NCBI GenBank assembly: GCA_965261735.1
Contig: OZ253470.1
Span: 1,952,001-2,016,000 of the forward strand
Origin: Alphaproteobacteria bacterium
GTDB lineage: Bacteria > Pseudomonadota > Alphaproteobacteria > SHVV01
Direction: 5' to 3'
Length of the DNA: 64,000 bases
Part shown: positions 1,016 through 39,571 of the stretch, piece by piece
How positions within the stretch are numbered: the first letter of the stretch is position 1
Layout of the letters: each line of letters begins with the position of its first letter
Program-made: the position numbers and the translations under genes
Notes under the pieces: generated by a model
What the model was told of the DNA's origin: nothing
Seen by the model: only the letters and a program-made list of their open reading frames with translations
The model's database searches: none

Positions 1016-1089
1016 CCTGGCGCCATCAGGGCGCGCCTGCGTTCCTCGCTCATGGACCATGGAAGCCATGGCGACCGGTCGTCTGGCAG

Positions 1090-1211
1090 GTTGGCACTCC
1101 GGTCTACGCGCGGCGCTCTATCAAGCCGCCACGGTGATGCTGAACCGCGCGGGACCGAACTGGCTGAATGCCTGGGCGCTACGTCTGGCGAAGCTTCGCG
1201 GCAAGAAGCGC
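1090..1211 (+). pseudogene. IS110-family transposase C-terminal fragment, cut by IS256 left end
   Basis: LRAALYQAATVMLNRAGPNWLNAWALRLAKLRGKKR resembles the IS110 C-terminal region. It stops at GGGAGTATCCGG. Confidence 0.6.
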
Positions 1212-2172
1212 GGGAGTATCCGGAATTTTGTGCTTTGGGCCATAGTGATGAAAAAGAAAGGAGCATCCTATGGCAATCGAGAAGGAACTATTGGACCAGC
1301 TGTTGGAGGGGCGTGATCCGGAAACGGTATTCACCCAGGACGGTCTGCTTGACGAGTTGAAGAAAGGGCTGTCGGAACGTGTCCTGAATGCGGAGCTCGA
1401 CGCGCATCTCGATGCGGAAACGGCGGATGGAAAAACCAATCGCCATAACGGCCGATCGCAGAAGACGGTCCTCACGGGTACGTCGAAGGTGACGCTGGAT
1501 ATTCCACGTGACCGGGCCGGCACCTTCGATCCGCAGCTGATCGCTAAATACCAGCGCCGGTTCCCGGACTTCGACGAGAAGATCATCTCCATGTATGCCC
1601 GCGGCATGACGGTCCGCGAGATCCGCGGTCACCTTCAGGAGCTGTACGGTATAGAGGTCTCACCGGACCTGATCTCAACGGTCACCGATGCCGTTCTCGA
1701 GGAGGTGAGCGAATGGCAGAACCGGCCGCTGGATGCCTGCTACGCCATCGTTTTCTTCGACGCCATCCGGGTCAAGATCCGCGACGAGGGGTTCGTTCGC
1801 AACAAGGCGGTGTATATCGCCCTCGCCATTCTTCCCGATGGCACCAAGGAGATCCTCGGTCTGTGGATCGAGCAGACCGAAGGCGCCAAGTTCTGGCTGC
1901 GCGTCATGAATGAGCTCAAGAACCGGGGCGTGCAGGACATCCTGCTCGCCGTCGTCGATGGTCTCAAGGGCTTCCCCGAGGCGATCAACGCCACCTTCCC
2001 CGAGACTGTGGTTCAGACCTGTATCGTCCACCTGATCCGCCATTCCATGAATTTTGCGTCATGGAAGGATCGAAAACATGTGGCCAAGGCGCTCAGGGAC
2101 GTATACCGGGCCAAGGACGCCGATGCCGGCCTGGCGGCGCTGGATGCCTTCGAGGCCGGCCCCTGGGGCGAG
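1212..2172 (+). mobile_element. IS256-family element, 3'-truncated (transposase from 1270)
   Basis: Left end GGGAGTATCCGGAATTTTGTG. Mutator motifs IPRDRAGTFDP, FFDAIRVKIR, VVDGLKGFPEAI and QTCIVHLIR. Homology ends at GPWGE. Confidence 0.9.
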
Positions 2173-2204
2173 GGCCGCATGTCGGCTAGATGCTCCAGGT
2201 TCAT

Positions 2205-3645
2205 ATCTACGTTCGGGACTCATGGCCTTGACCTGCATCGTCTCCCGCGGTGGCTGTGGCGGGGCGACAACCGGGTTCGCTGTGAAATCGAAGGGGATGC
2301 CGAAAACATCGGCGTATTCCACATTGAAGAGCCCTTCGTCAGGCCCTTCTTCGTTCACTTCGTAAGATTGGCGGCGTAGGGCACGGCCGATGACCTGCTC
2401 GCACAGAAGCTGGGTGCCGAAGGCGCGAATGCCGAGAACGTGGGTGACGGTATTGGCATCCCAGCCCTCGGTGAGCATCGATACGGAGACGACGCAACGG
2501 ATGGCGCCGCCAAGCTGGTCGGGCTTGCCGACGGTGTTCATGACCTCGCGGAGCAACTCCTGGTCGGTGATGTTGTCGCCGGCACGGGGGTCGCCGCTGC
2601 GCTCTACGATCTCGCGACGAAAGCGCTTGATTTCGCTGGCCGCCATGCCGCGAAAGTTCTTGTCGAGCGCGTCGCCGGCTTCGAGTTGCTCGCTATCGAT
2701 GAGGAGCGTGTTCGGACGCGGGAGAGGGTTGCCAGTAGTTTCGTCGAAATTGCGGAATAAGGCGAGGCGTCCGTTCACCAGGCTGGTCGTGTCGTCGTCG
2801 TTTTTGCGACGAAAACCGGAAATGAAGTCGTAAACAAGTTTCGAGATGGCTGTGTTCTGGCAAACGACGATGAAGCAAGGGGGAACTTTGATGCCCCGTT
2901 CGTCCCAAAGCTCGAAGGTCTTCTCGTAGTGGCCATAGAGAGCTTGAAGCGCCGTCTGTAAGCGCGTAGGGAGTTTAAGGGGGTCGAGTTCTTCGCCTTT
3001 GCCGCGCCCCTTCTTGGGCATGTCTTTTCGGATGTTTTCCCAGAGGTTTCGGAACATCGGCATTTCGTTGCCAGGAATATTTTCTGCGACAGGGACGCGC
3101 GGTAGTTTGACGATGCCGCACTCGATAGCATCCATGAGCGAAAAGTCGCTCATCGTCCACGGGAACAGCGTCCCCTCGGCGTAACCGGAACCCTTTAGAA
3201 AAAATGGCGTTGCTGACAAATCAATGACGCCGCTAAGGCCGAGCCTGCGATTCACTGCTTCAAGGCCCGAAATCCAGAGGCGTGCTGCCTCATTGGCTTT
3301 CTCCGCCTCTTTCCTCTCGTCACCTTTCAGATCTGCATCGTCGGCGTCTTTGAATTTCTCCCGATAGCAATGGTGCGCTTCGTCATTGATGACGAGGATG
3401 TTCTTCATGCCCATCAAGCCGGGCATAACCCGCTGGAGCATTTGGCCTTCCGTCTCCAACATCTTCAGTTCCTCGCCGCCACGTCCTTGCAGGAGTTGGC
3501 GCCCACCTTTGGACAGGGCGATGCGCTCGCGCAGCTTGAAGGCGTGGTAGTTGGTGATAACGATCTTGGCCCGGTTCACGTCATCGAGCATGTCGCCAGG
3601 AACGAGTTCGCGGTTGGCGTAGTAGCTATCGGGATCATTGGGCTG
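2205..3645 (-). pseudogene. Type III restriction endonuclease Res subunit (SF2 helicase), internal fragment
   Basis: Motifs VITNYHAF, INDEAHHCY (DEAH), DLSATP, VSMLTEGWD and QVIGRALRR. Walker A N-terminus and C-terminal nuclease are missing. Confidence 0.85.
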
Positions 3646-7977: not shown

Positions 7978-8109
7978 CGCTCTGTCAAGTTAACCGGATG
8001 CACTCCGAAATCTCGTTAAATATTCGATGACTGCTTTGTTCATTTTCAATGGCGTAGCCTCATGGAGAAATGCCGAAAACAGCCTACAATCAGTTAACTT
8101 GACAATGCT
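7978..8109. mobile_element. IS6-derived MITE (about 130 bp) with an unoccupied IS1111 target in its right IR
   Basis: Imperfect terminal IRs GCTCTGTCAAGTTAACCGG and TCAGTTAACTTGACAATGC. A second copy lies at 11724-11848. Confidence 0.7.
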
Positions 8110-11723: not shown

Positions 11724-11848
11724 AGCTTTGTCAAGTTGACCGGATTCACTCCGAAATATCTGTAAATTGTCGATGGCTTCTCTACGCAATTTCAATGGCT
11801 TGGCCTCATGGAGAAATGCCGAAAACAGCCTACAATCAGTTAACTTGA
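11724..11848. mobile_element. IS6-derived MITE copy with right IR split by an IS1111 insertion (IR completed by CAATGCC at 13203-13209)
   Basis: Homologous to 7978-8109. Left IR is GCTTTGTCAAGTTGACCGG. Confidence 0.7.
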
Positions 11849-11927
11849 TGGTATGGACGCCCCCTACGGCTTCACGATGAGCCATACTGGAGTGTGTTGA
11901 ACAACCCAGACAGAGGGAGCGTCCACG

Positions 11928-12947
11928 ATGGATATTACGACAATTGGGTTTGATCTGGCAAAGACGGTGTTCCAGGTTCACGGTGCTGATGGTGAGGGAC
12001 GACCGGTACTACGGCGGAAGCTGCGCCGCGGGAAGGTGCTGGCGTTCTTCGCCGGATTGCCATCCTGTCTTGTCGGTATGGAAGCCTGTGCCTCTGCGCA
12101 CTATTGGGCTCGGGAACTGCAAGCACACGGGCACAAAGTTCAGCTGATTCCGCCTCAATACGTTCGTCCCTTCGTCAAAACGAATAAGAACGACGCAGCG
12201 GATGCGGAAGCGATCTGTGAGGCAGTGACGCGTCCGACGATGCGCTTTGCACCGGCGAAAAGCGCCGAGCAGCAGTCGGTTCTGATGCTGCACCGGGCCC
12301 GAGAGCTGTTGGTCCGTCAACGCACGATGGTGATCAATGCGCTTCGCGGCCACTGTGCGGAGCTCGGACTGATCGTCGCTCAAGGGGCGTCGAAGGTGGA
12401 GGAACTGGTTGCCATCATCGAAGATCCCGGCGATGTGCGACTGCCGCCTCTGGCACGCGAGGCGCTTGGCTCTCTGGTTGAGCAGCTCCGTTCTGCTCAG
12501 GCCCGGATCAAGCAGCTGGAAGTGACGCTTTTGGCATGGCACCGCTCCAACGAGGCGAGCCGCCGTCTTGCGACGATCCCCGGCGTCGGTGTCATCACCG
12601 CGACGGCGCTGGTCGCGACGATCGGCGATGGCGCACAGTTCCGCTCGGGCCGACAGCTTTCGGCCTGGCTCGGTCTCGTGCCCCGGCAGCACTCGAGTGG
12701 CGGCAAGGATAGACTGGGACGGATATCGAAGCGCGGGGATGGCTATATCAGGCGCTTGCTCGTGCATGGTGCGCGAACCGTGCTGCGCTGGCGCCGCGCC
12801 AAGCCGGGCACGGGGCCTGGCTGGACCGACCGGCTCCTGGCGCGGCGGCCGACAAACGTGGTGCTGGTCGCCATGGCCAATAAGGCAGCCCGTGTCGCCT
12901 GGGCACTGCTCAGGTACGAGCGTATCTACCGACCGACGCCGGCATAG
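11928..12947 (+). CDS. IS110-family recombinase/transposase
   Basis: IGFDLAKTVFQ, MEAC and KNDAADAEAI (DEDD), plus LGLVPRQHSSGGK. Confidence 0.95.
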   Translation: MDITTIGFDLAKTVFQVHGADGEGRPVLRRKLRRGKVLAFFAGLPSCLVGMEACASAHYWARELQAHGHKVQLIPPQYVRPFVKTNKNDAADAEAICEAVTRPTMRFAPAKSAEQQSVLMLHRARELLVRQRTMVINALRGHCAELGLIVAQGASKVEELVAIIEDPGDVRLPPLAREALGSLVEQLRSAQARIKQLEVTLLAWHRSNEASRRLATIPGVGVITATALVATIGDGAQFRSGRQLSAWLGLVPRQHSSGGKDRLGRISKRGDGYIRRLLVHGARTVLRWRRAKPGTGPGWTDRLLARRPTNVVLVAMANKAARVAWALLRYERIYRPTPA

Positions 12948-12989
12948 CCAGCTGGCAAACCGGGATCAAATTGCGAGGGTGACGACGAT

Positions 12990-13150
12990 TTGATGGCGAA
13001 ACAGGGTTCCACCCGAGATCGGCCAAACCCGAGGCATTGTCCGAGCATCAAGCTCGTTAGTCTGACTGGGCGTCGATCTTTCGGATTCCATCAGGGCCAG
13101 CGGTCAGCGTACCGCAGCGAAAAGGCCGGATACATGACTGCAAGCTCTAC
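12990..13150 (+). ncRNA. Predicted seekRNA/bridge RNA in the IS1111 3' non-coding region (copies at about 17530-17690 and 35765-35920, minus strand)
   Basis: GGCATTGTC and GTTAGTCTGAC flank a GAGC/GCTC stem and match the target flanks. CCATCA and ATACATGA match the element's own ends. Boundaries are inferred. Confidence 0.75.
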
Positions 13151-13209
13151 CGCCGATTCAAATCAGTTTTCCCCTTGCAACACCGGGGGCGTCCATACAT
13201 GACAATGCC

Positions 13210-15197: not shown

Positions 15198-15621
15198 CTG
15201 GCGAACAAGATGGCGCGCATCATCTGGGCGCCGACGGTCAAGAAGGAAACCTACCGGGCGCCAGCAGCGGTTGCCGCTGGTCCGGAATAGCTACCCGGAA
15301 GAGAAAGGCTGTTTAGAATTGGAACGCCGGGCTCTGCGGACACGGTCTTGAGGGCGTGATGCGCGGATAACCCCGGTTGGTGCGGTTGGGACGAAAGACA
15401 ACATAGGGGCGAAAGGTCAGAAAAACGGGGTCGGAAAAACCAGTATGAGACGCAGGGCTGTGAAGCATACCGCCTCACCGATTTGGATCCGATCCACGAA
15501 CACCATATGGGCCCGCGGCGCATGAATGCCGCTTCACAGAGGCCGGACATACGACAGTACCTGACCGCATGTCACAAGTTGTTCAAATTCCTTCTCGCGC
15601 TGCAGGGGGCGTCCACATACG
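15198..15621 (+). mobile_element. Second IS1111-type element, 3' relic (transposase tail, non-coding region and right end)
   Basis: LANKMARIIWAPTVKKETYRAP, GAGGCCGGACATACGAC in the non-coding region, right end GGGGGCGTCCACATACG. Confidence 0.75.
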
Positions 15622-15760
15622 TCTCATGGCAGACATCGATACCGCGCTCGGACAAGAGATCTTCGACTTGTCTCAGCGACAACGGGTAACGGACATACAT
15701 CATGACCGCGAGGCGGATGATCTCGGGCGAACTGTTGAAGTAGCGGAAGGGATTTAGCCT
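15620..15760 (-). pseudogene. IS6-family transposase N-terminal fragment, interrupted at CHET
   Basis: NPFRYFNSSPEIIRLAVMMYVRYPLSLRQVEDLLSERGIDVCHET. Confidence 0.85.
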
Positions 15761-17335: not shown

Positions 17336-17478
17336 GTCGGGCGGGCACCGCGTCCGGTCCACGCTCCATTCGCCTTCGGCGGACATAGCAAACAGTCGCT
17401 GCGCGAGGAGAACGGTCGTCTGGGCGCACTGCCGAGTCACGAACTGGTGTCGGCTACGTGGATACGTTGCGGGCATTG

Positions 17479-18835
17479 TCATGTATGGACGCCCCCGGTG
17501 TTGCAAGGGGAAAACTGATTTGAATCGGCGGTAGAGCTTGCAGTCATGTATCCGGCCTTTTCGCTGCGGTACGCTGACCGCTGGCCCTGATGGAATCCGA
17601 AAGATCGACGCCCAGTCAGACTAACGAGCTTGATGCTCGGACAATGCCTCGGGTTTGGCCGATCTCGGGTGGAACCCTGTTTCGCCATCAAATCGTCGTC
17701 ACCCTCGCAATTTGATCCCGGTTTGCCAGCTGGCTATGCCGGCGTCGGTCGGTAGATACGCTCGTACCTGAGCAGTGCCCAGGCGACACGGGCTGCCTTA
17801 TTGGCCATGGCGACCAGCACCACGTTTGTCGGCCGCCGCGCCAGGAGCCGGTCGGTCCAGCCAGGCCCCGTGCCCGGCTTGGCGCGGCGCCAGCGCAGCA
17901 CGGTTCGCGCACCATGCACGAGCAAGCGCCTGATATAGCCATCCCCGCGCTTCGATATCCGTCCCAGTCTATCCTTGCCGCCACTCGAGTGCTGCCGGGG
18001 CACGAGACCGAGCCAGGCCGAAAGCTGTCGGCCCGAGCGGAACTGTGCGCCATCGCCGATCGTCGCGACCAGCGCCGTCGCGGTGATGACACCGACGCCG
18101 GGGATCGTCGCAAGACGGCGGCTCGCCTCGTTGGAGCGGTGCCATGCCAAAAGCGTCACTTCCAGCTGCTTGATCCGGGCCTGAGCAGAACGGAGCTGCT
18201 CAACCAGAGAGCCAAGCGCCTCGCGTGCCAGAGGCGGCAGTCGCACATCGCCGGGATCTTCGATAATGGCAACCAGTTCCTCCACCTTCGACGCCCCCTG
18301 AGCGACGATCAGTCCGAACTCCGCACAGTGGCCGCGAAGCGCATTGATCACCATCGTGCGTTGACGGACCAACAGCTCTCGGGCCCGGTGCAGCATCAGA
18401 ACCGACTGCTGCTCGGCGCTTTTCGCCGGTGCAAAGCGCATCGTCGGACGCGTCACTGCCTCACAGATCGCTTCCGCATCCGCTGCGTCGTTCTTATTCG
18501 TTTTGACGAAGGGACGAACGTATTGAGGCGAAATCAGCTGAACTTTGTGCCCGTGTGCTTGCAGTTCCCGAGCCCAATAGTGCGCAGAGGCACAGGCTTC
18601 CATACCGACAAGACAGGATGGCAATCCGGCGAAGAACGCCAGCACCTTCCCGCGGCGCAGCTTCCGCCGTAGTACCGGTCGTCCCTCACCATCAGCACCG
18701 TGAACCTGGAACACCGTCTTTGCCAGATCAAACCCAATTGTCGTAATATCCATCGTGGACGCTCCCTCTGTCTGGGTTGTTCAACACACTCCAGTATGGC
18801 TCATCGTGAAGCCGTAGGGGGCGTCCATACCATCA
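17479..18835 (-). mobile_element. IS1111 complete copy 2, near-identical to copy 1 and inverted
   Basis: Same ends and the same 1357 bp length as copy 1. Confidence 0.95.
17734..18753 (-). CDS. IS110-family recombinase/transposase
   Basis: 339 aa, differing from 11928..12947 at P to S and L to F. Confidence 0.95.
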   Translation of the reverse strand: MDITTIGFDLAKTVFQVHGADGEGRPVLRRKLRRGKVLAFFAGLPSCLVGMEACASAHYWARELQAHGHKVQLISPQYVRPFVKTNKNDAADAEAICEAVTRPTMRFAPAKSAEQQSVLMLHRARELLVRQRTMVINALRGHCAEFGLIVAQGASKVEELVAIIEDPGDVRLPPLAREALGSLVEQLRSAQARIKQLEVTLLAWHRSNEASRRLATIPGVGVITATALVATIGDGAQFRSGRQLSAWLGLVPRQHSSGGKDRLGRISKRGDGYIRRLLVHGARTVLRWRRAKPGTGPGWTDRLLARRPTNVVLVAMANKAARVAWALLRYERIYRPTPA

Positions 18836-35126: not shown

Positions 35127-35690
35127 TCATCGGGCTGTGATCCGCCCTTCGATCGCCGGCGCGACCGTGCCGGCCGCAATGATGTGATCGATCAGCTGGC
35201 CGGCCATCAGGGTGCCCGACGCCGAGTCGACCAGCACCTCGCCCGCCCTGAACACGCGATAATCGTCGCCGCCGCGCGCGAGGAAATTGTTGGTCGCAAG
35301 CGTATAGGTCTTGCCATCCTCCAGCGTTGCACGGCCCACCGTGACGCTCGTCACGCGGTCGCCCGGAGGTCTGCGCGCGTCGAAGGTAAAGGCGAGACCC
35401 GAGATCTGCGGGAAGCGGCCCGAGGGGTTCTCCGCCCGGCTCACGCCGGTCTCCAAGGCTTCTCGCACCTGGGCGCCGGTGAGGCGGAGCACCACGGTCT
35501 TGTTGCCGAAGGGAAGCTCCGTCAGTACCATCTTGCGGGTGAGCTTGGTGCCGGGCGGATAGACCGTGTCGCCGCGAATGCCGCCGCCGTTAGTGAGCGC
35601 GATATCGCTGCCTGTCGCCTGCCGCATGGCGTCTGCCAGCAGATTGCCGAAGGCGGTCTCGGCCGATCCGCGGGCTTGTGTTGTGGTCAG
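35127..35690 (-). pseudogene. 5'-nucleotidase C-terminal domain fragment
   Basis: ETAFGNLLADAMR, NGGGIR, LPFGN, FPQISGL and FLARGGD. N-terminal part is lost at IS6/IS1111 ends. Confidence 0.85.
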
Positions 35691-35710
35691 GAGGGCGTTG
35701 TCAGGCATTG

Positions 35711-37068
35711 TCATGTATGGACGCCCCCGGTGTTGCAAGGGAGAAACTGACTTAAAACGGCGGTAGAGCTTGCAGTCATGTATCCGGCCTTTGCGCTGCG
35801 GTACGCTGACCGCTGGCCCTGATGGAATCCGAAAGATCGACGCCCAGTCAGATTAACGAGCTCAAAGCTCTGACAATGCCTCGGGTTTGGCCGATCTCGG
35901 GTGGAGCCCTGTTTCGCCATCAAATCGTCGTTACCCTCGCAAGTTTGTATCCGCTTTCCAGCTGGTCAGGCGGGCGACGGTCGGTAGATACGCTCGTATC
36001 TGAGCAGTGCCCAGGCGACGCGGGCTGTCTTATTGGCCATGGCGACCAGCACGACGTTTGTCGGCCGCCGCGCCAGGAGCCGGTCGGTCCAGCCAGGCCC
36101 CGTGCCCGGCTTGGCGCGGCGCCAGCGCAGCACGCTTCGCGCACCATGCACGAGCAAGCGCCTGATATAGCCATCCCCGCGCTTCGAGATCCGCCCCAGC
36201 CTGTCCTTGCCGCCACTCGAGTGTTGTCGGGGCACGAGACCGAGCCAGGCCGAGAGCTGCCGGCCCGAGCGAAACTGCGCGCCATCTCCGATCGTCGCGA
36301 CCAGCGCCGTCGCGGTGATGACACCGACGCCGGGGATCGTCGCAAGCCGGCGGCTCGCCTCGTTGGAGCGGTGCCAAGCCAAAAGCGTCGCCTCCAGCTG
36401 CTTGATCCGGGCCTGAGCGGAATGGAGCTGCTCAACCAGAGAGCCAAGCGCCTCGCGTGCCAGAGGGGGCAGTCGCACATCACCGGGATCTTCGATGATG
36501 GCAACCAGTTCCTCCACCTTCGACGCCCCTTGAGCGACGATCAGTCCGAGCTCCGCACAGTGGCCGCGAAGCGCATTGATCACCATCGTGCGTTGACGGA
36601 CCAACAGCTCACGGGCCCGGTGCAGCATCAAAACCGATTGCTGCTCGGCGCTTTTCGCCGGCGCAAAGCGCATCGTCGGACGCGTCACCGCCTCGCAGAT
36701 CGCTTCCGCATCCGCCGCGTCGTTCTTGTTCGTCTTGACGAAGGGGCGAACGTATTGAGGCGGGATCAGCCGGACCTCATGGCCCAGCGCTTGTATCTCA
36801 CGCGCCCAGTAGTGCGCACTGGCGCAGGCTTCCATGCCGACAAGACATGATGGCAATCCGGCGAAGAACGCCAACACCTTCCCGCGGCGCAGCTTCCGCC
36901 GTAGTACCGCTCGCCCCTCACCATCAGCACCGTGAACCTGGAACACCGTCTTTGCCAGATCAAAACCGATTGTTGTAATATCCATCGTGGACGCTCCCTC
37001 TGTCTGGAGTTCAAACCAAACTCCATTCTGGCGCACTCGACGCCGAAAAGGGGGCGCCCATACCATCA
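35711..37068 (-). mobile_element. IS1111 complete copy 3 (variant), CDS 35966..36985
   Basis: Same end architecture, with a variant left end and non-coding region. Confidence 0.95.
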
Positions 37069-37250
37069 GAGTAAATGGGCTTGAGCTAAAAAGTAAGATC
37101 TCGTAGCCTCCGGCGATGCACAATCCTTTCCGTTATTTCAACAGTTCGCCTGTGGCAATCCGCAGCGCGGTGATGCTGTATGTCCGTTACCCCTTGTCGC
37201 AGAGCCGTGCGGTACTGGTAGATTCTTCAGTTCCGACCCAGTTAGTCTGA
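37066..37250 (+). mobile_element. Internally deleted IS6 element, both IRs interrupted by IS1111 copies 3 and 4
   Basis: MHNPFRYFNSSPVAIRSAVMLYVRYPLS (37116..) lies between TCAGAGTAAATGGG and CCCAGTTAGTCTGA. Confidence 0.8.
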
Positions 37251-37660
37251 TGGTATGGACGCCCCCTTTTCGGCGTCGAGTGCGCCAGAATGGAGTTTGG
37301 TTTGAACTCCAGACAGAGGGAGCGTCCACGATGGATATTACAACAATCGGTTTTGATCTGGCAAAGACGGTGTTCCAGGTTCACGGTGCTGATGGTGAGG
37401 GGCGAGGGGTACTGCGGCGGAAGTTGCGCCGCGGGAAGGTGCTGGCGTTCTTCGCCGGATTGCCATCCTGTCTTGTCGGCATGGAGGCCTGCGCCTCTGC
37501 GCACTATTGGGCTCGGGAGCTGCAGGCACTCGGGCACAAAGTGCGGCTGATCCCGCCTCAATACGTACGTCCCTTCGTCAAGACGAACAAGAACGACGCG
37601 ACGGATGCGGAAGCGATCTGCGAGGCGGTGACGCGTCCGACGATGCGCTTTGCACCGGCG
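37248..37660 (+). mobile_element. IS1111 copy 4, 3'-truncated (CDS from 37331)
   Basis: Left end TGATGGTATGGACGCCCCC and MDITTIGFDLAK...TMRFAPA. Confidence 0.9.
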
Positions 37661-37783
37661 TGGCCAAGTCCCAGGTGAGCCGGCCGTCGGCACGCACCCG
37701 CACCGTCTCGCGCGGCGGCTTCGCCGTCCGCGCCGCCAGCTAATCCACAGCTCGCCGCCTGCGGATCCAGGAGCGGATCGGCG

Positions 37784-38362
37784 ATGTCGAGCGCTGATGG
37801 CGGCCCGGTCGTGAACGCCATGGCCGGGCGTCTGCAGCCGGTGCTGGTGCTGGTGGGCGTGATCTGGGCGGTCGAGATCGTCAACCTGCTCACTGGCCAT
37901 GTGCTGGTGTCGTGGGGAATCCTGCCGCGTTCTCTGAGCGGCCTGATCGGCATACCGCTGGCGCCGCTGATCCATGGCGGTCTCTGGCATACGCTCTCCA
38001 ACACGGTGCCGCTGGCGCTTCTCGGTACGCTTACGCTCGCGAGCGGCCGCAAGCGGTTCTGGCAGACCACGATCGCAATCGCCTTGCTCTCCGGCGCTTT
38101 GGTATGGCTGTTTGCGCGCGAAGCCTACCACGTTGGCGCCAGCAGCCTGGTGTTCGGCTATTTCGGCGCGATTTTGGCGCGCGCCTTCACCGAACGCAGT
38201 CTATCGTCGATGGCGATCGCCTTCGCTACACTGGTGATCTATGGCGGGTTGCTGTGGGGGCTGCTGCCGCTGCGCAACCACATTTCGTTCGAGGGACATC
38301 TGTTTGGCTTTGTCGCCGGCATCGCGGTGGTATGGATTGGTCGGCGATTGGCCCGGGAATAG
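37784..38362 (+). CDS. Rhomboid-family intramembrane serine protease
   Basis: HGGLWHTLSN, HVGAS and SFEGHLFG. Confidence 0.88.
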   Translation: MSSADGGPVVNAMAGRLQPVLVLVGVIWAVEIVNLLTGHVLVSWGILPRSLSGLIGIPLAPLIHGGLWHTLSNTVPLALLGTLTLASGRKRFWQTTIAIALLSGALVWLFAREAYHVGASSLVFGYFGAILARAFTERSLSSMAIAFATLVIYGGLLWGLLPLRNHISFEGHLFGFVAGIAVVWIGRRLARE

Positions 38363-38465: not shown

Positions 38466-39571
38466 CTTGCCTATCCGGTTAACGCCCATGACCGCTACAT
38501 GTAGGGTGCCGCCACTCTCCCGAGTAAAGCTCGGCATAGGTTGGAGCAGAGGTGTCGCCCGCGATGCCGAGCAATGAGCGGAAGGCGTTGAACGGGTAGA
38601 ACCGCCTGTTGAAGCGGAAGGTGAACTCGTTGAGGTAGGCTTGTAGGTGCTGGTGGCTAACGCCGTGGTGAGATACCGATCAGCCACGTCTTCAGGTTGG
38701 CGAAAACCAGATGGATGATCGGCAGGTATTGCTCGGCAACCTCTGGATCACCACACTCGGCAACAGCGAAGTGCTCATAGCCGCGCTTACCGAGGCCAGC
38801 ATAGCCGCTCCAATCGTCAGTAACGATCAGCGATCGCGGCGCGACGGTGCTCTCGACGAACCCACAGAGCGACTCGGCGCTACGGTCGAGCACGACGGCG
38901 AGCCGAACGCGTCCGGCATAGCGTCCGTCTTTCCGGTTGTCGAGCTTGGTGCCCGGCTTTCGATGACGCACCTCGATGGCACAGGAGACGGGAACCTTGT
39001 GGTGAACACCACGGCCTTCCCCACGCGTTCGCCCGCCAACCCAGGTTTCGTCCACCTCAACATGGTTCTTGGGCTGTCCACCGATCCTGTCTTGGTTGGG
39101 CCGCACCATGCCCGAGCGGAGCTTGTGGAGAATTTGAAAGGCCGTCTCGTAGCGCGAAAGACCAAGTTACCGCTGAAACTGCACGGCGGACATGCCGGGC
39201 GTCTGACTGGCGACCAGATAAGCGGCCCAGAACCAGACGTTCAGCGGAGTGTGGCTACGCTCCATCACTGTTCCCACCGTCAGCCCGGTGTTCTGGCGGC
39301 ACTTGCGGCAGCGCAGGACGCCAGGGCGGTTTTCAAAGTGGAACGGCTCTCCCGCCGTGCCGTAGTGCGGGCAGGCAAAGCCGTCTCCCCAGCGGGCTTT
39401 CTCCAGGTAGGCGGCGCAGGCCGCATCATCGGGGAAAAGTCGCTGGAACTCGGGTAGCGAATGCGGGAATGGGAGATCGGCGCGGTCGAGAACATCCATG
39501 GCGCGCTCCCCTATATCCGGTTTGCGCCCATTCTAGCCCTAGTGGGTGTGGGTGTAAACCGGATACGCAAG
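38466..39571 (-). mobile_element. IS1595-family element with a pseudogenised transposase (stop at 39167, frameshift near 38660)
   Basis: IRs CTTGCCTATCCGGTTAACGCCCA and the reverse complement CTTGCGTATCCGGTTTACACCCA. VEVDET, VTDDW and YLNEFTFRFNRR. Confidence 0.88.

What the first reader, a model, noticed from the sequence alone, without database searches (positions are those of the whole stretch)
35704..37660. RNA-guided IS1111 elements target IS6 terminal inverted repeats; both IRs of one mini-IS6 are occupied
Seen in sequence: IS1111 copies 3 and 4 sit back to back around a 185 bp spacer encoding an IS6 transposase N-terminus (NPFRYFNSSP...YVRYPLS). Removing copy 3 restores GGCATTG|TCAGAGTAAATGGG. 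Copy 4 follows CCCAGTTAGTCTGA, the inverted counterpart. All three complete copies (11846, 17479, 35711) are followed by CAATGCC and then unrelated DNA, as expected for the tip of an IR. Established: IS1111-group elements are RNA-guided, and IS4321/IS5075 target Tn21-type IRs. Inference: this is an IS1111 lineage that parasitises IS6 ends, either disabling them or moving with them. I do not know of this pairing being described, but cannot check.
Basis: partly seen in the sequence, partly recalled or inferred. Interest (0 to 1): 0.85.

Follow-up and report, generated by a model that had tools for sequence, protein, structure and literature searches.

The report
RNA-guided IS1111 elements inserted in IS6 ends
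A 1.35-kb jumping gene of the IS1111 type, which carries its own guide RNA, has landed precisely inside the end-repeats of another jumping gene (IS6 type), here on both ends of one shrunken copy; this is a new target for an already known habit of this family.

Summary
Copy 3 (window 35714-37068, 1355 bp) and truncated copy 4 (37248-37660) face outward from a 179-bp remnant of an IS6-family element. Joining the flanks gives GGCATTGTCA|GAGTAAATGGG and its inverted partner. A sister genome that lacks this IS1111 element holds an 800-bp IS6 copy with both sequences uninterrupted.

The non-coding 3' region of the element has the layout described for IS1111 seekRNAs. A 5' segment is complementary to the top strand of the target, a hairpin follows, and a 3' segment matches the bottom strand. 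A second loop matches the element's own ends.

Across 27 distinct relatives the guide varies with the flanks (0 of 10,000 permutations), and the stems show compensatory changes. IS6 transposase genes abut the left end in 29 of 90 related loci and the right end in 2 of 90. These loci include relatives with only 59-64% transposase identity, which target other IS6 end variants.

IS1111 members that target the ends of other transposons are known (IS4321/IS5075 in Tn21, IS1383 in IS1384). My searches found no report of IS6 ends as a target. RNA guidance and disabling of IS6 are inferred, not shown.

The parts
35704..35713 (.). Tip of the left inverted repeat of the IS6 remnant (GGCATTGTCA), cut off from the rest of the repeat by copy 3. 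Its last bases (CA, i.e. TG on the other strand) are the core shared with the element end.
   Evidence: The same 10-mer continues into GAGTAAATGGG without a break in G004 and in a contig of run X16.
35714..37068 (-). IS1111-type element, copy 3 (1355 bp). Read in the transposase direction, the left end is TGATGGT plus the subterminal repeat ATGGGCGCCCCC (37050-37061). The right subterminal repeat is GGGGGCGTCCAT (35717-35728), followed by ACA.
   Evidence: It is 92% identical to copies 1 and 2 and 98-99% identical to pieces in genome G002; transposases in two other assemblies are 99% identical.
35966..36988 (-). Transposase gene (340 aa, DEDD type).
   Evidence: Pfam PF01548 (E 7e-13) and PF02371 (E 3.6e-28).
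35776..35896 (-). Predicted seekRNA / bridge-RNA region in the non-coding stretch downstream of the transposase gene. It comprises an outer stem, a target loop, a hairpin, a donor loop and a hairpin.
   Evidence: Alignment and pair counts; single-sequence fold. No Rfam family matches.
35871..35880 (-). 5' target guide GGCAUUGUCA, complementary to the top-strand target TGACAATGCC (core plus right flank).
   Evidence: It matches 10 of 10 positions in 7 loci that carry this guide.
35848..35857 (-). 3' target guide GUUAAUCUGA, identical to the top-strand left flank plus core, so it would pair with the bottom strand.
35820..35827 (-). 5' donor guide UUCCAUCA, complementary (7 of 8) to the element's own left end TGATGGTA.
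35776..35785 (-). 3' donor guide GGAUACAUGA. It matches the element's own right end plus core (CCATACA+TGA) at 8 of 10 positions.
37069..37247 (+). Body of the internally deleted IS6 element (179 bp). It holds the rest of the left repeat (GAGTAAATGGG...), the transposase start at 37116 (28 recognisable codons), about 43 nt of the 3' end, and the rest of the right repeat CCCAGTTAGTC (37237-37247).
37248..37660 (+). IS1111-type element, copy 4: the left 413 bp only. It sits in the right repeat of the IS6 remnant and faces away from copy 3.
   Evidence: 93.7% identical to copy 3.
11846..13199 (+). IS1111-type element, copy 1 (1354 bp). It is inserted in the right end of an IS6-type miniature element whose left end is at 11724 and whose tip TGACAATGCC lies at 13200-13209.
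17482..18835 (-). IS1111-type element, copy 2 (1354 bp). It sits in a short left-repeat remnant of the same IS6 type: GGCATTGTCA at 17472-17481, then GAGTAAATGGGCTTGAGCTA from 18836.

Best explanation
This is an IS1111-group insertion sequence of the IS110 family, with a DEDD transposase. Its natural insertion site is the terminal inverted repeat of a subgroup of IS6-family elements. It inserts at a TG core that follows the first 8 bases of the repeat.

Proposed mechanism:
- A roughly 120-nt RNA from the non-coding region downstream of the transposase gene carries two guide pairs.
- In the target loop, the 5' segment (GGCAUUGUC[A/C]) pairs with the top strand of core plus right flank (TGACAATGCC). 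The 3' segment (GUUA[A/G]UCUGA) pairs with the bottom strand of left flank plus core.
- A second loop pairs in the same way with the joined ends of the excised circular element.
- Recombination at the core puts the element into the repeat in one fixed orientation, with its left end towards the IS6 body.

Because the two repeats of an IS6 element are nearly the same over these 18 bases, both ends are targets. That gives the outward-facing pair seen here.

What is shown: the insertion positions, the uninterrupted targets, the guide-to-flank match and its covariation, and the family features of both partners.

What is inferred: that the RNA is made and guides the reaction (by analogy with ISEc11, ISKpn4 and ISPa11), that the element moves through a circle, and that splitting the repeat disables that IS6 end.
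For: (1) Family features.
- Pfam PF01548 and PF02371.
- A 12-bp subterminal repeat with a 7-bp left and a 3-bp right extension.
- A 252-nt non-coding region downstream of the gene.
- TG(A) at both junctions.

(2) Uninterrupted target.
- G004 has 12 sites within 2 mismatches of the joined 21-mer. These include the two ends of an 800-bp IS6 copy.
- G004 has 0 left or right ends of this IS1111 element.
- Contigs of run X16 read through both sites.
- This genome has 0 uninterrupted sites within 2 mismatches.

(3) The target is an IS6 end.
- Intact neighbours encode a PF13610 transposase.
- The repeats have the GG tip and the TGT motif given for the family (PMC7986276, passage).
- They resemble the repeats of other IS6 groups in this genome, such as GGCATTGTCACGTTAAC.

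(4) Guides.
- The 5' and 3' segments sit at fixed places in an alignment of relatives.
- Over 27 distinct guide pairs, the match to a guide's own flanks averages 12.9 of 18, against 8.4 for the flanks of others. Shuffled pairings reached the observed sum in 0 of 10,000 trials.
- A 70%-identical relative in G001 has other guides (UUGGGUCA and AUUUUUGA), other flanks (..TTT|TGA|CCCAA) and other ends, with matching donor guides.
- The order of the segments (top-strand match 5' of bottom-strand match, overlapping at the core) is the order reported for IS1111 seekRNAs (PMC11187229, section 9).

(5) Structure.
- 84.5% of cells are paired, against 77.8% in shuffles.
- 15 pairs change on both sides, and 0 of 500 shuffles reach the observed values.
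- In the outer stem, 7 of 7 pairs have compensatory changes.

(6) Generality.
- IS6 transposase genes lie on the left-end side in 29 of 90 loci and on the right-end side in 2 of 90, with about equal DNA searched on each side. The 29 loci come from 14 assemblies.
- In a Roseovarius assembly and in Brevundimonas pishanensis, the far, intact IS6 repeat equals the joined flanks of the local IS1111 relative.
Against: - There is no experiment and no raw reads. RNA-library contigs cover the element but cannot show transcription or RNA ends.
- Three of the 12 left junctions in this genome are not in a recognisable IS6 end. Two of those 3 share a 35-bp flank.
- Some used sites differ from the guides. 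The miniature element hosting copy 1 has 3 mismatches next to the core, and 2 sites have CAACGCC.
- In G002, which carries the element, two IS6 copies with intact transposase genes keep an uninterrupted right repeat (GGCGTTGTCAGACGAACTGG), a variant that is occupied in this genome.
- The single-sequence fold is no more stable than shuffled sequence (z -0.65).
- RNAalifold on its own predicted only the donor-loop hairpin.
- Helices 3 and 6 of my structure have many unpaired cells, partly because of misaligned rows.
- The 90 loci are not independent; 16 come from one assembly.
Confidence: 0.88

Rival explanations
1. The target is read by the transposase protein rather than by an RNA. The matches in the non-coding region would then be leftovers or binding sites in DNA.
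For: No RNA has been shown here. The single-sequence fold is not significant. Rfam has no matching family.
Against: The matching segments change together with the flanks across 27 relatives, while the stems around them keep pairing through compensatory changes. The transposases of relatives with different targets remain 55-99% identical. Published IS1111 members of the same layout need the RNA (PMC11187229, abstract and section 9).
Confidence: 0.05
2. The association is indirect. IS elements pile up in the same islands, or the IS6 elements inserted next to the IS1111 ends, and there is no sequence-specific targeting of IS6 repeats.
For: The genome is rich in IS elements (23 PF13610 matches; dozens of IS110-type pieces). 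Many neighbouring elements are fragments.
Against: The IS6 repeat is split at the same base in every case, with its 10-base tip on the far side of the IS1111 element. So the IS1111 element entered the IS6 end and not the reverse. The side bias is 29 against 2. IS6 groups B, C and D of the same genome, whose repeats differ next to the core, show no such insertion at the ends found.
Confidence: 0.03
3. The pair of IS1111 copies with the IS6 remnant between them is itself a mobile unit, a composite transposon, rather than two independent insertions.
For: Similar arrays of divergent IS110-family copies around other IS were noted in Paracoccus yeei, where the authors left this possibility open (PMC11578231, section 22 passage). 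One locus of the Roseovarius assembly (L125) appears to have both IS6 ends occupied.
Against: Copy 4 is truncated, and copies 3 and 4 are only 93.7% identical, so they come from different sub-lineages. The donor guides match the ends of a single element. No second copy of the whole array was found in the genome.
Confidence: 0.04

Closest known systems
IS4321 / IS5075 (IS1111 family) in the 38-bp terminal repeats of Tn21-family transposons (Partridge & Hall 2003; seen only as a reference title; the paper itself is not held)
   Same: An IS1111-family element with subterminal repeats inserts at one fixed position and in one orientation inside the terminal inverted repeat of another transposable element.
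   Different: The host element here is an IS6-family insertion sequence of about 800 bp with 15-20-bp repeats, not a Tn3-family transposon. The hosts are uncultured or environmental Alphaproteobacteria. Both ends of a single host element are hit.
IS1383, which integrates into the inverted repeats of IS1384 in Pseudomonas putida H (Muller et al. 2001; seen only as a reference title)
   Same: One insertion sequence uses the inverted repeats of another insertion sequence as its specific target.
   Different: The partner families differ. I could not read that paper, so position, orientation and guide are not compared.
ISPye46 arrays in Paracoccus yeei (PMC11578231, section 22, passages seen)
   Same: A 1361-bp IS110-family element flanked by 'TG' sits in divergent pairs around another IS, as copies 3 and 4 do here. 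The size and the TG core are the same as in this lineage.
   Different: The enclosed elements there are of the IS256 and IS5 families. Those authors did not decide between a composite transposon and targeted insertion, and did not discuss a guide RNA. Relatedness to the element here was not tested.
ISEc11, ISKpn4, ISPst6 and ISPa11 seekRNAs (PMC11187229) and the IS621 bridge RNA (PMC11208160)
   Same: The RNA lies downstream of the transposase gene. It has one segment complementary to the top strand and one to the bottom strand of the target, in that order, overlapping at the core. A second loop matches the element ends.
   Different: Those elements target a short linear site, integron attC sites or REP sequences. 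Here the RNA is predicted only.

Membership tests
IS1111 group of the IS110 family | DEDD (RuvC-like) transposase with the IS110-type C-terminal domain, 330-350 aa | tested here: met
   A 340-aa protein hits PF01548 (E 7e-13) and PF02371 (E 3.6e-28). The length range is from a PMC11187229 passage.
IS1111 group of the IS110 family | Subterminal inverted repeats of 11-13 bp, with 7 bp beyond them on the left and 3 bp on the right | tested here: met
   The left end is TGATGGT plus ATGG(A/G)CGCCCCC; the right end is GGGGGCGTCCAT plus ACA. The rule is from a PMC11187229 passage.
IS1111 group of the IS110 family | Long non-coding region downstream of the transposase gene | tested here: met
   252 nt lie between the stop codon (35966) and the element end (35714).
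IS1111 group of the IS110 family | Sequence-specific insertion without a target duplication, with the core present at both junctions | tested here: met
   TG(A) is at both junctions. All 9 right junctions begin TGACA, and 8 of 12 left junctions share one motif.
IS1111 group of the IS110 family | Circular intermediate with joined ends | not testable with these tools
   Only contigs of public runs could be laid, and no joint of that kind was listed.
seekRNA / bridge RNA | [quoted passage not shown] | tested here: met
   The layout is from PMC11187229, section 9.
seekRNA / bridge RNA | Conserved stems around the guide loops, kept through compensatory changes | tested here: met
   helix 1 has 7 of 7 pairs and helix 2 has 3 of 3 pairs with changes on both sides; 0 of 500 shuffles are as high. 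Helices 3 and 6 are weaker (76% and 58% of cells paired).
seekRNA / bridge RNA | The RNA is made, binds the transposase and is needed for transposition | not testable with these tools
   RNA-library contigs cover the element but do not show transcription.
IS6 family (the target element) | Transposase with the IS240-type DDE domain, in an element of about 700-890 bp | tested here: met
   The L080 neighbour is 231 aa and hits PF13610 at E 1.1e-41. The G004 copy is 800 bp. The size range is from PMC7986276.
IS6 family (the target element) | Short (15-20 bp) terminal repeats with a GG tip and a cTGTt motif | tested here: met
   The repeats are GGCATTGTCAGAGTAAATGG and GGCATTGTCAGACTAACTGG. Variants with tips GGCGCTGTCA and GGCGTTGTCA occur. 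The motif is from PMC7986276; the internal 'caaa' motif of that consensus is not present.
IS6 family (the target element) | 8-bp target duplication | tested here: inconclusive
   The flanks of the one G004 copy I read (gaaccggt and gccgaagg) are not a duplication. The right side of the window's remnant is lost with copy 4.

The most novel reading that the evidence does not exclude
A diversified lineage of IS1111 elements in Alphaproteobacteria is a dedicated parasite of IS6-family elements. Its guide RNA follows the variants of the IS6 end repeat (GGCATTGTCA, GGTGCTGTCA, GGCGCTGTCA, GGTATTGCCA). It occupies the cognate ends until none is left free in a genome, and by splitting the repeat it stops IS6 from moving, so that the IS6 copies decay. 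This would be an RNA-guided contest between two transposons, and a natural model for aiming such elements at IS6/IS26-type ends.

Support:
- This genome has 0 free cognate ends and no full-length transposase gene of the targeted IS6 type, only fragments.
- G004, without the IS1111 element, has 12 free ends and 4 full-length, stop-free transposase genes of that type.
- IS6-type targets occur on both main branches of the transposase tree.

Against:
- G002 has the element and still holds full-length IS6 transposase genes with free, slightly different right repeats.
- Three genomes are too few to show cause.
Probability: 0.3. Interest if true: 0.72.

Novelty: new member of a known kind. Interest (0 to 1): 0.52.

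Why it matters
IS6-family elements, which include IS26, IS257 and IS6100, are the main movers of antibiotic-resistance genes in clinical bacteria. How their activity is held in check in nature is poorly known. This finding shows a natural element, apparently RNA-guided, whose chosen landing site is the IS6 end repeat.

It also gives a set of relatives in which guide and target have changed together. That set is ready-made natural data on the targeting rules of IS1111-type seekRNAs: guide lengths, tolerated mismatches and a TG core.

It adds a third host class (IS6) to the known cases of IS1111 elements living inside the ends of other transposons. It also offers a possible explanation for divergent IS110-type pairs around small IS remnants, which are sometimes read as composite transposons.

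The mechanism itself is not new.

Tried and rejected
Searches that found nothing useful:
- A near-identity DNA search of the element against plasmids found only short pieces (4 records, at most 13% of the query).
- A distant DNA search with the 182-bp spacer found nothing.
- An Rfam scan of 35600-37800 at E up to 1 gave no match.
- A protein search of plasmids found relatives of at most 64% identity. In the 3 regions I opened (H19, H27, H42) no IS6 gene is annotated beside them, so those relatives probably use other targets. The plasmid gene tables are incomplete.

Structure attempts:
- RNAalifold on 27 sequences predicted only the donor-loop hairpin. The fuller structure is my own proposal, tested afterwards.
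- The single-sequence fold recovers the three target-loop stems but is not more stable than shuffles.

An error of mine: protein 2 was translated in the wrong frame (37118 instead of 37116) and so gave no Pfam hit. This was corrected.

Weaknesses in my junction scripts:
- The automatic end-finding misplaced many junctions. It was refined, which kept 50 of 80 loci.
- Three loci (L129, L132, L141) were then dropped from the guide analysis for misplaced or missing left flanks. L096 was dropped from the tree for a short reading frame.
- In one search my right-end coordinates for five G000 copies were one base off. One search replaces them.
- In one search the alignment columns of the 5' guide are shifted by about 2 for the L135-L147, L145 and L153 rows. 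Those rows therefore score low, and I left them in.

Public runs: only contigs were available. RNA-library contigs cover the element, but that does not show expression. No circle junction and no empty site of copy 3 itself was listed.

The tree does not make the IS6-targeting elements one clade (6 changes needed), so I do not claim a single origin.

Target duplication of the IS6 element could not be established.

Literature:
- Searches for the pairing in print found no paper describing IS1111 or IS110 elements in IS6 ends.
- The IS6 review PMC7986276 has no occurrence of 'IS110'.
- Supplements are closed. The target logos for more than 300 ISfinder entries in the supplement of PMC11187229 and Table S7 of PMC11578231 may bear on novelty and were not seen.
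- ISfinder itself could not be consulted.
Full report
WHAT IS THERE

The region holds an IS1111-type insertion sequence on the minus strand, called copy 3 (window 35714-37068, 1355 bp).
- It encodes a 340-aa transposase (35966-36988) with the two Pfam domains of the IS110 family: PF01548 at E 7e-13 and PF02371 at E 3.6e-28.
- Read in the direction of the gene, the element starts with TGATGGT followed by a 12-bp subterminal repeat. It ends with the inverted copy of that repeat followed by ACA.
- This is the 7-bp/3-bp arrangement given for the IS1111 family (PMC11187229, introduction passage).
- A 252-nt non-coding region follows the gene.
- A second, truncated copy (copy 4, 37248-37660, 413 bp, 93.7% identical to copy 3) faces the other way.

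Between the two left ends lie 179 bp (37069-37247).
- This stretch begins GAGTAAATGGG and ends CCCAGTTAGTC.
- From 37116 it encodes MHNPFRYFNSSPVAIRSAVMLYVRYPLS....
- To the left of copy 3 lies GGCATTGTCA (35704-35713), then the 3' part of a 5'-nucleotidase gene (PF02872, E 2.6e-42).

IS THE SPACER AN IS6 REMNANT, AND IS THE JOINED SEQUENCE ITS END?

Yes, on four lines of evidence.
- Protein: 25 of the first 28 residues match the start of an intact 231-aa protein next to a relative of the element in locus L080. That protein hits the IS6-family domain PF13610 at E 1.1e-41.
- DNA: a pattern search for the joined 21-mer in the 8 genomes held for this order gave 12 hits in G004, 1 in G002 and none in the window's own genome. 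Two of the G004 hits, 800 bp apart and inverted, bound an IS6 copy. Its left end reads GGCATTGTCAGAGTAAATGGGCTTGAGCC, its gene starts MHNPFRYFYSSPEVIRSAVMLYVRYPLS, and its right end reads ...CTCCAGTTAGTCTGACAATGCC (that copy has a frameshift).
- The spacer is 92% identical to nt 11-146 of that copy, and its last 10 bases match nt 781-790. It is therefore an IS6 copy that lost about 600 internal bases.
- G004 has no left or right end of the IS1111 element (0 matches with up to 2 mismatches). Contigs of run X16 also read straight through both sites (loose ends at 37066 and 37250).

So CAATGCC belongs to the IS6 end and not to the IS1111 element.

The repeats carry the GG tip and TGT motif given for the IS6 family (PMC7986276). 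They resemble the repeats of three other IS6 groups of this genome: GGTGCTGTCACGGTAAC, GGCATTGTCACGTTAAC and GGCATTGACACGTTAAG.

OTHER COPIES IN THE GENOME

BLAST finds 15 pieces of at least 85% identity. A motif scan finds 12 left junctions and 9 right junctions of this element.

Right flanks:
- TGACAATGCC, 5 times.
- TGACAATGTC, once.
- TGACAGTGCC, once.
- TGACAACGCC, twice.

Left flanks:
- CCAGTTnGTC, 6 times (the IS6 right repeat).
- CCATTTACTC, twice (the IS6 left repeat; copies 2 and 3).
- TCAGTTAACT, once (copy 1).
- GATACATT(C/T)C, twice, in sites that share 35 bp of flank.
- TAAACCAGCC, once.

Copy 1 sits in the right end of a 132-133-bp miniature element. Its two ends are IS6-type repeats (GGCTTTGTCAAGTTAACC ... 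CAGTTAACTTGACAATGCC). The nine other copies examined, one of them in the window at 7978-8109, are uninterrupted.

In total, 9 of 12 left junctions lie in IS6-type ends. The other three have IS6-like tips (GGCACTGTCAGG, GGCGTTGTCAGG) but an unidentified body.

As a chance control, 0 of 200,000 random 20-mers reach 16 of 20 identities with the IS6 ends.

The ends found for IS6 groups B, C and D carry no insertion.

THE GUIDE

In the non-coding region, all nine copies aligned carry the same layout: GAGGCATTGTC(C/A), a hairpin (GAGC..GCTC), then GTTA(G/A)TCTGAC.
- The first segment is the reverse complement of the target's core plus right flank (TGACAATGCC).
- The second segment is identical to the left flank plus core (GTTAGTCTGA), so it would pair with the other strand.
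- Further on, TTCCATCA, a hairpin and GGATACATGA match the element's own left end and right end in the same way.
- This is the arrangement reported for IS1111 seekRNAs: one segment complementary to the top strand and one to the bottom strand, overlapping in the target, with the top-strand match 5' (PMC11187229, section 9).

Durrant et al. place the predicted bridge RNA of IS1111 elements in the right end (PMC11208160, section 12 passage).

TEST BY COVARIATION

A 70%-identical relative in G001 differs at every level:
- Its ends are TGATGCT+GTGGACGGCGC ... GCGCCGTCCAC+AGA.
- Its flanks are ..TTT|TGA|CCCAA in 4 of 4 loci.
- Its target guides are TTGGGTCA and ATTTTTGA.
- Its donor guides (AGCATGA, ACAGATGAC) fit its own ends.

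A wider collection gave 80 loci with transposases 55-99% identical. Clean junctions could be set for 50 of them.
- With guide columns taken from an alignment and not from the best match, there were 27 distinct guide pairs.
- A guide pair matches its own flanks at 12.9 of 18 positions on average, against 8.4 for the flanks of others.
- Shuffled pairings reached the observed sum in 0 of 10,000 trials. A guide's own target was top or tied in 16 of 27 rows.
- Some rows are misaligned by about 2 columns and were left in.

A structure I drew from the alignment has an outer stem, a three-pair stem, a target loop with hairpin, and a donor loop with hairpins. I then counted its pairs on 27 sequences.
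- 84.5% of cells are paired, against 77.8% in shuffles and 23-43% when the partners are slid.
- 15 pairs change on both sides. None of 500 shuffles reaches the observed value on any of the five measures.
- All 7 pairs of the outer stem and all 3 of the next stem show compensatory changes.
- The hairpin columns are less clean: 76% and 58% of cells are paired.
- RNAalifold alone predicted only one hairpin. The single-sequence fold is not significant (z -0.65). Rfam has no model.

GENERALITY

Among 90 related loci (80 and 10 from G001 and G002), a tblastn search with IS6 transposases found a hit on the left-end side in 29 and on the right-end side in 2. About 124 kb and 122 kb were searched on the two sides.
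- The 29 loci come from 14 assemblies. The IS6 gene runs towards the element in 16 and away from it in 13, as expected if both repeats are used.
- They include relatives with 59-64% transposase identity.
- In a Roseovarius assembly the far, intact repeat GGTATTGCCAAGTTGTT(C/G)GG equals the joined flanks in 5 loci. The guides there are GGTATTGCCA and GCAACTTG.
- In Brevundimonas pishanensis the joined flanks GGTGCTGTCAGTCTAACGC pair with an intact far repeat GGTGCTGTCAGGATAAC.
- In every case the insertion is at a TG that follows the first 8 bases of the repeat.

On a transposase tree of 33 rows, the IS6-type targets lie on both main branches and are mixed with other targets (6 changes needed). 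One 14-row clade (support 98/97) consists almost wholly of IS6-type targets. I therefore claim a recurrent or old association, not a single origin.

OCCUPANCY AND STATE OF THE IS6 COPIES

- This genome has no free cognate end and no full-length transposase gene of the targeted IS6 type, only fragments.
- G004 has no copy of the IS1111 element, 12 free ends and 4 full-length, stop-free transposase genes of that type.
- G002 has about 9 left and 12 right ends of the element and still has 3 full-length genes. Two of them keep a free right repeat of the variant GGCGTTGTCAGACGAACTGG, a variant that is occupied once in this genome.

This fits, but does not prove, the idea that the element saturates and disables its host IS.

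COMPARISON WITH WHAT IS KNOWN

Targeting of the ends of other transposable elements by IS1111 members is established.
- IS4321 and IS5075 insert in Tn21-family repeats, and IS1383 inserts in the repeats of IS1384. I saw both only as reference titles; the first paper is not held.
- Divergent pairs of a 1361-bp IS110-family element with a TG 'repeat' around IS256 and IS5 elements were noted in Paracoccus yeei without a decision on their origin (PMC11578231, section 22 passages).

My four literature searches and the IS6 review gave no report of IS6 ends as a target. Supplements and ISfinder could not be seen.

VERDICT

It is a new member, with a new host class, of a known kind of system. RNA guidance, the circle intermediate and the effect on IS6 are inferences from sequence.

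Noticed in passing
window 7978-8109; also 11724-11845 plus 13200-13209; at least 8 more copies elsewhere in the genome: A 132-133-bp miniature inverted-repeat element with IS6-type ends (GGCTTTGTCAAGTTAACC ... CAGTTAACTTGACAATGCC) and no reading frame. One copy hosts IS1111 copy 1; the nine other copies examined are uninterrupted.
   Followed up: partly
genome G000, about 20 sites such as C1:1544617-1544967 and 3689223-3689573: A second, more numerous IS110-type element is about 69-70% identical to the one studied over part of the gene. Its right end has a near-identical subterminal repeat but is followed by CG..., so it presumably has another core and target.
   Followed up: no
genome G000 C1:2942630-2944371: A complete copy is followed directly by the last 388 bp of another copy (junction ...CATACA|TGGACCGACC, inside the transposase gene). 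This is either an insertion into a copy at a poor site or a rearrangement.
   Followed up: no
L157 and L158 (G002:C1:202700-203850 and 321600-322750): Two IS6 copies with a full-length, stop-free transposase gene and a normal right repeat lack the first 8 or so bases of the left repeat. The sequences diverge at about the point where the IS1111 element would insert. This could be a scar of an earlier insertion; it was not examined.
   Followed up: no
L155 (Bradyrhizobium elkanii plasmid NZ_CP126035.1, locus 1034-3535): Two IS110-family transposase genes are annotated back to back, about 440 bp apart. This is the same outward-facing arrangement as copies 3 and 4. What lies between them was not read.
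   Followed up: no
window 38657-39499, minus strand: Two adjacent reading frames (150 aa and 110 aa) look like the two halves of one broken transposase gene. A near-identical 110-aa part occurs again near genome position 4451869-4452462. The family was not determined.
   Followed up: no
window 15620-15754, minus strand: Another short N-terminal fragment of the same IS6 type: 89% identity to residues 3-47 of the L080 transposase. It lies 1.7 kb from copy 2.
   Followed up: no
window 35127-35703, minus strand: The C-terminal part of a 5'-nucleotidase gene (PF02872) ends at the IS6 tip, so the IS6 element appears to have interrupted this gene before the IS1111 insertion.
   Followed up: no
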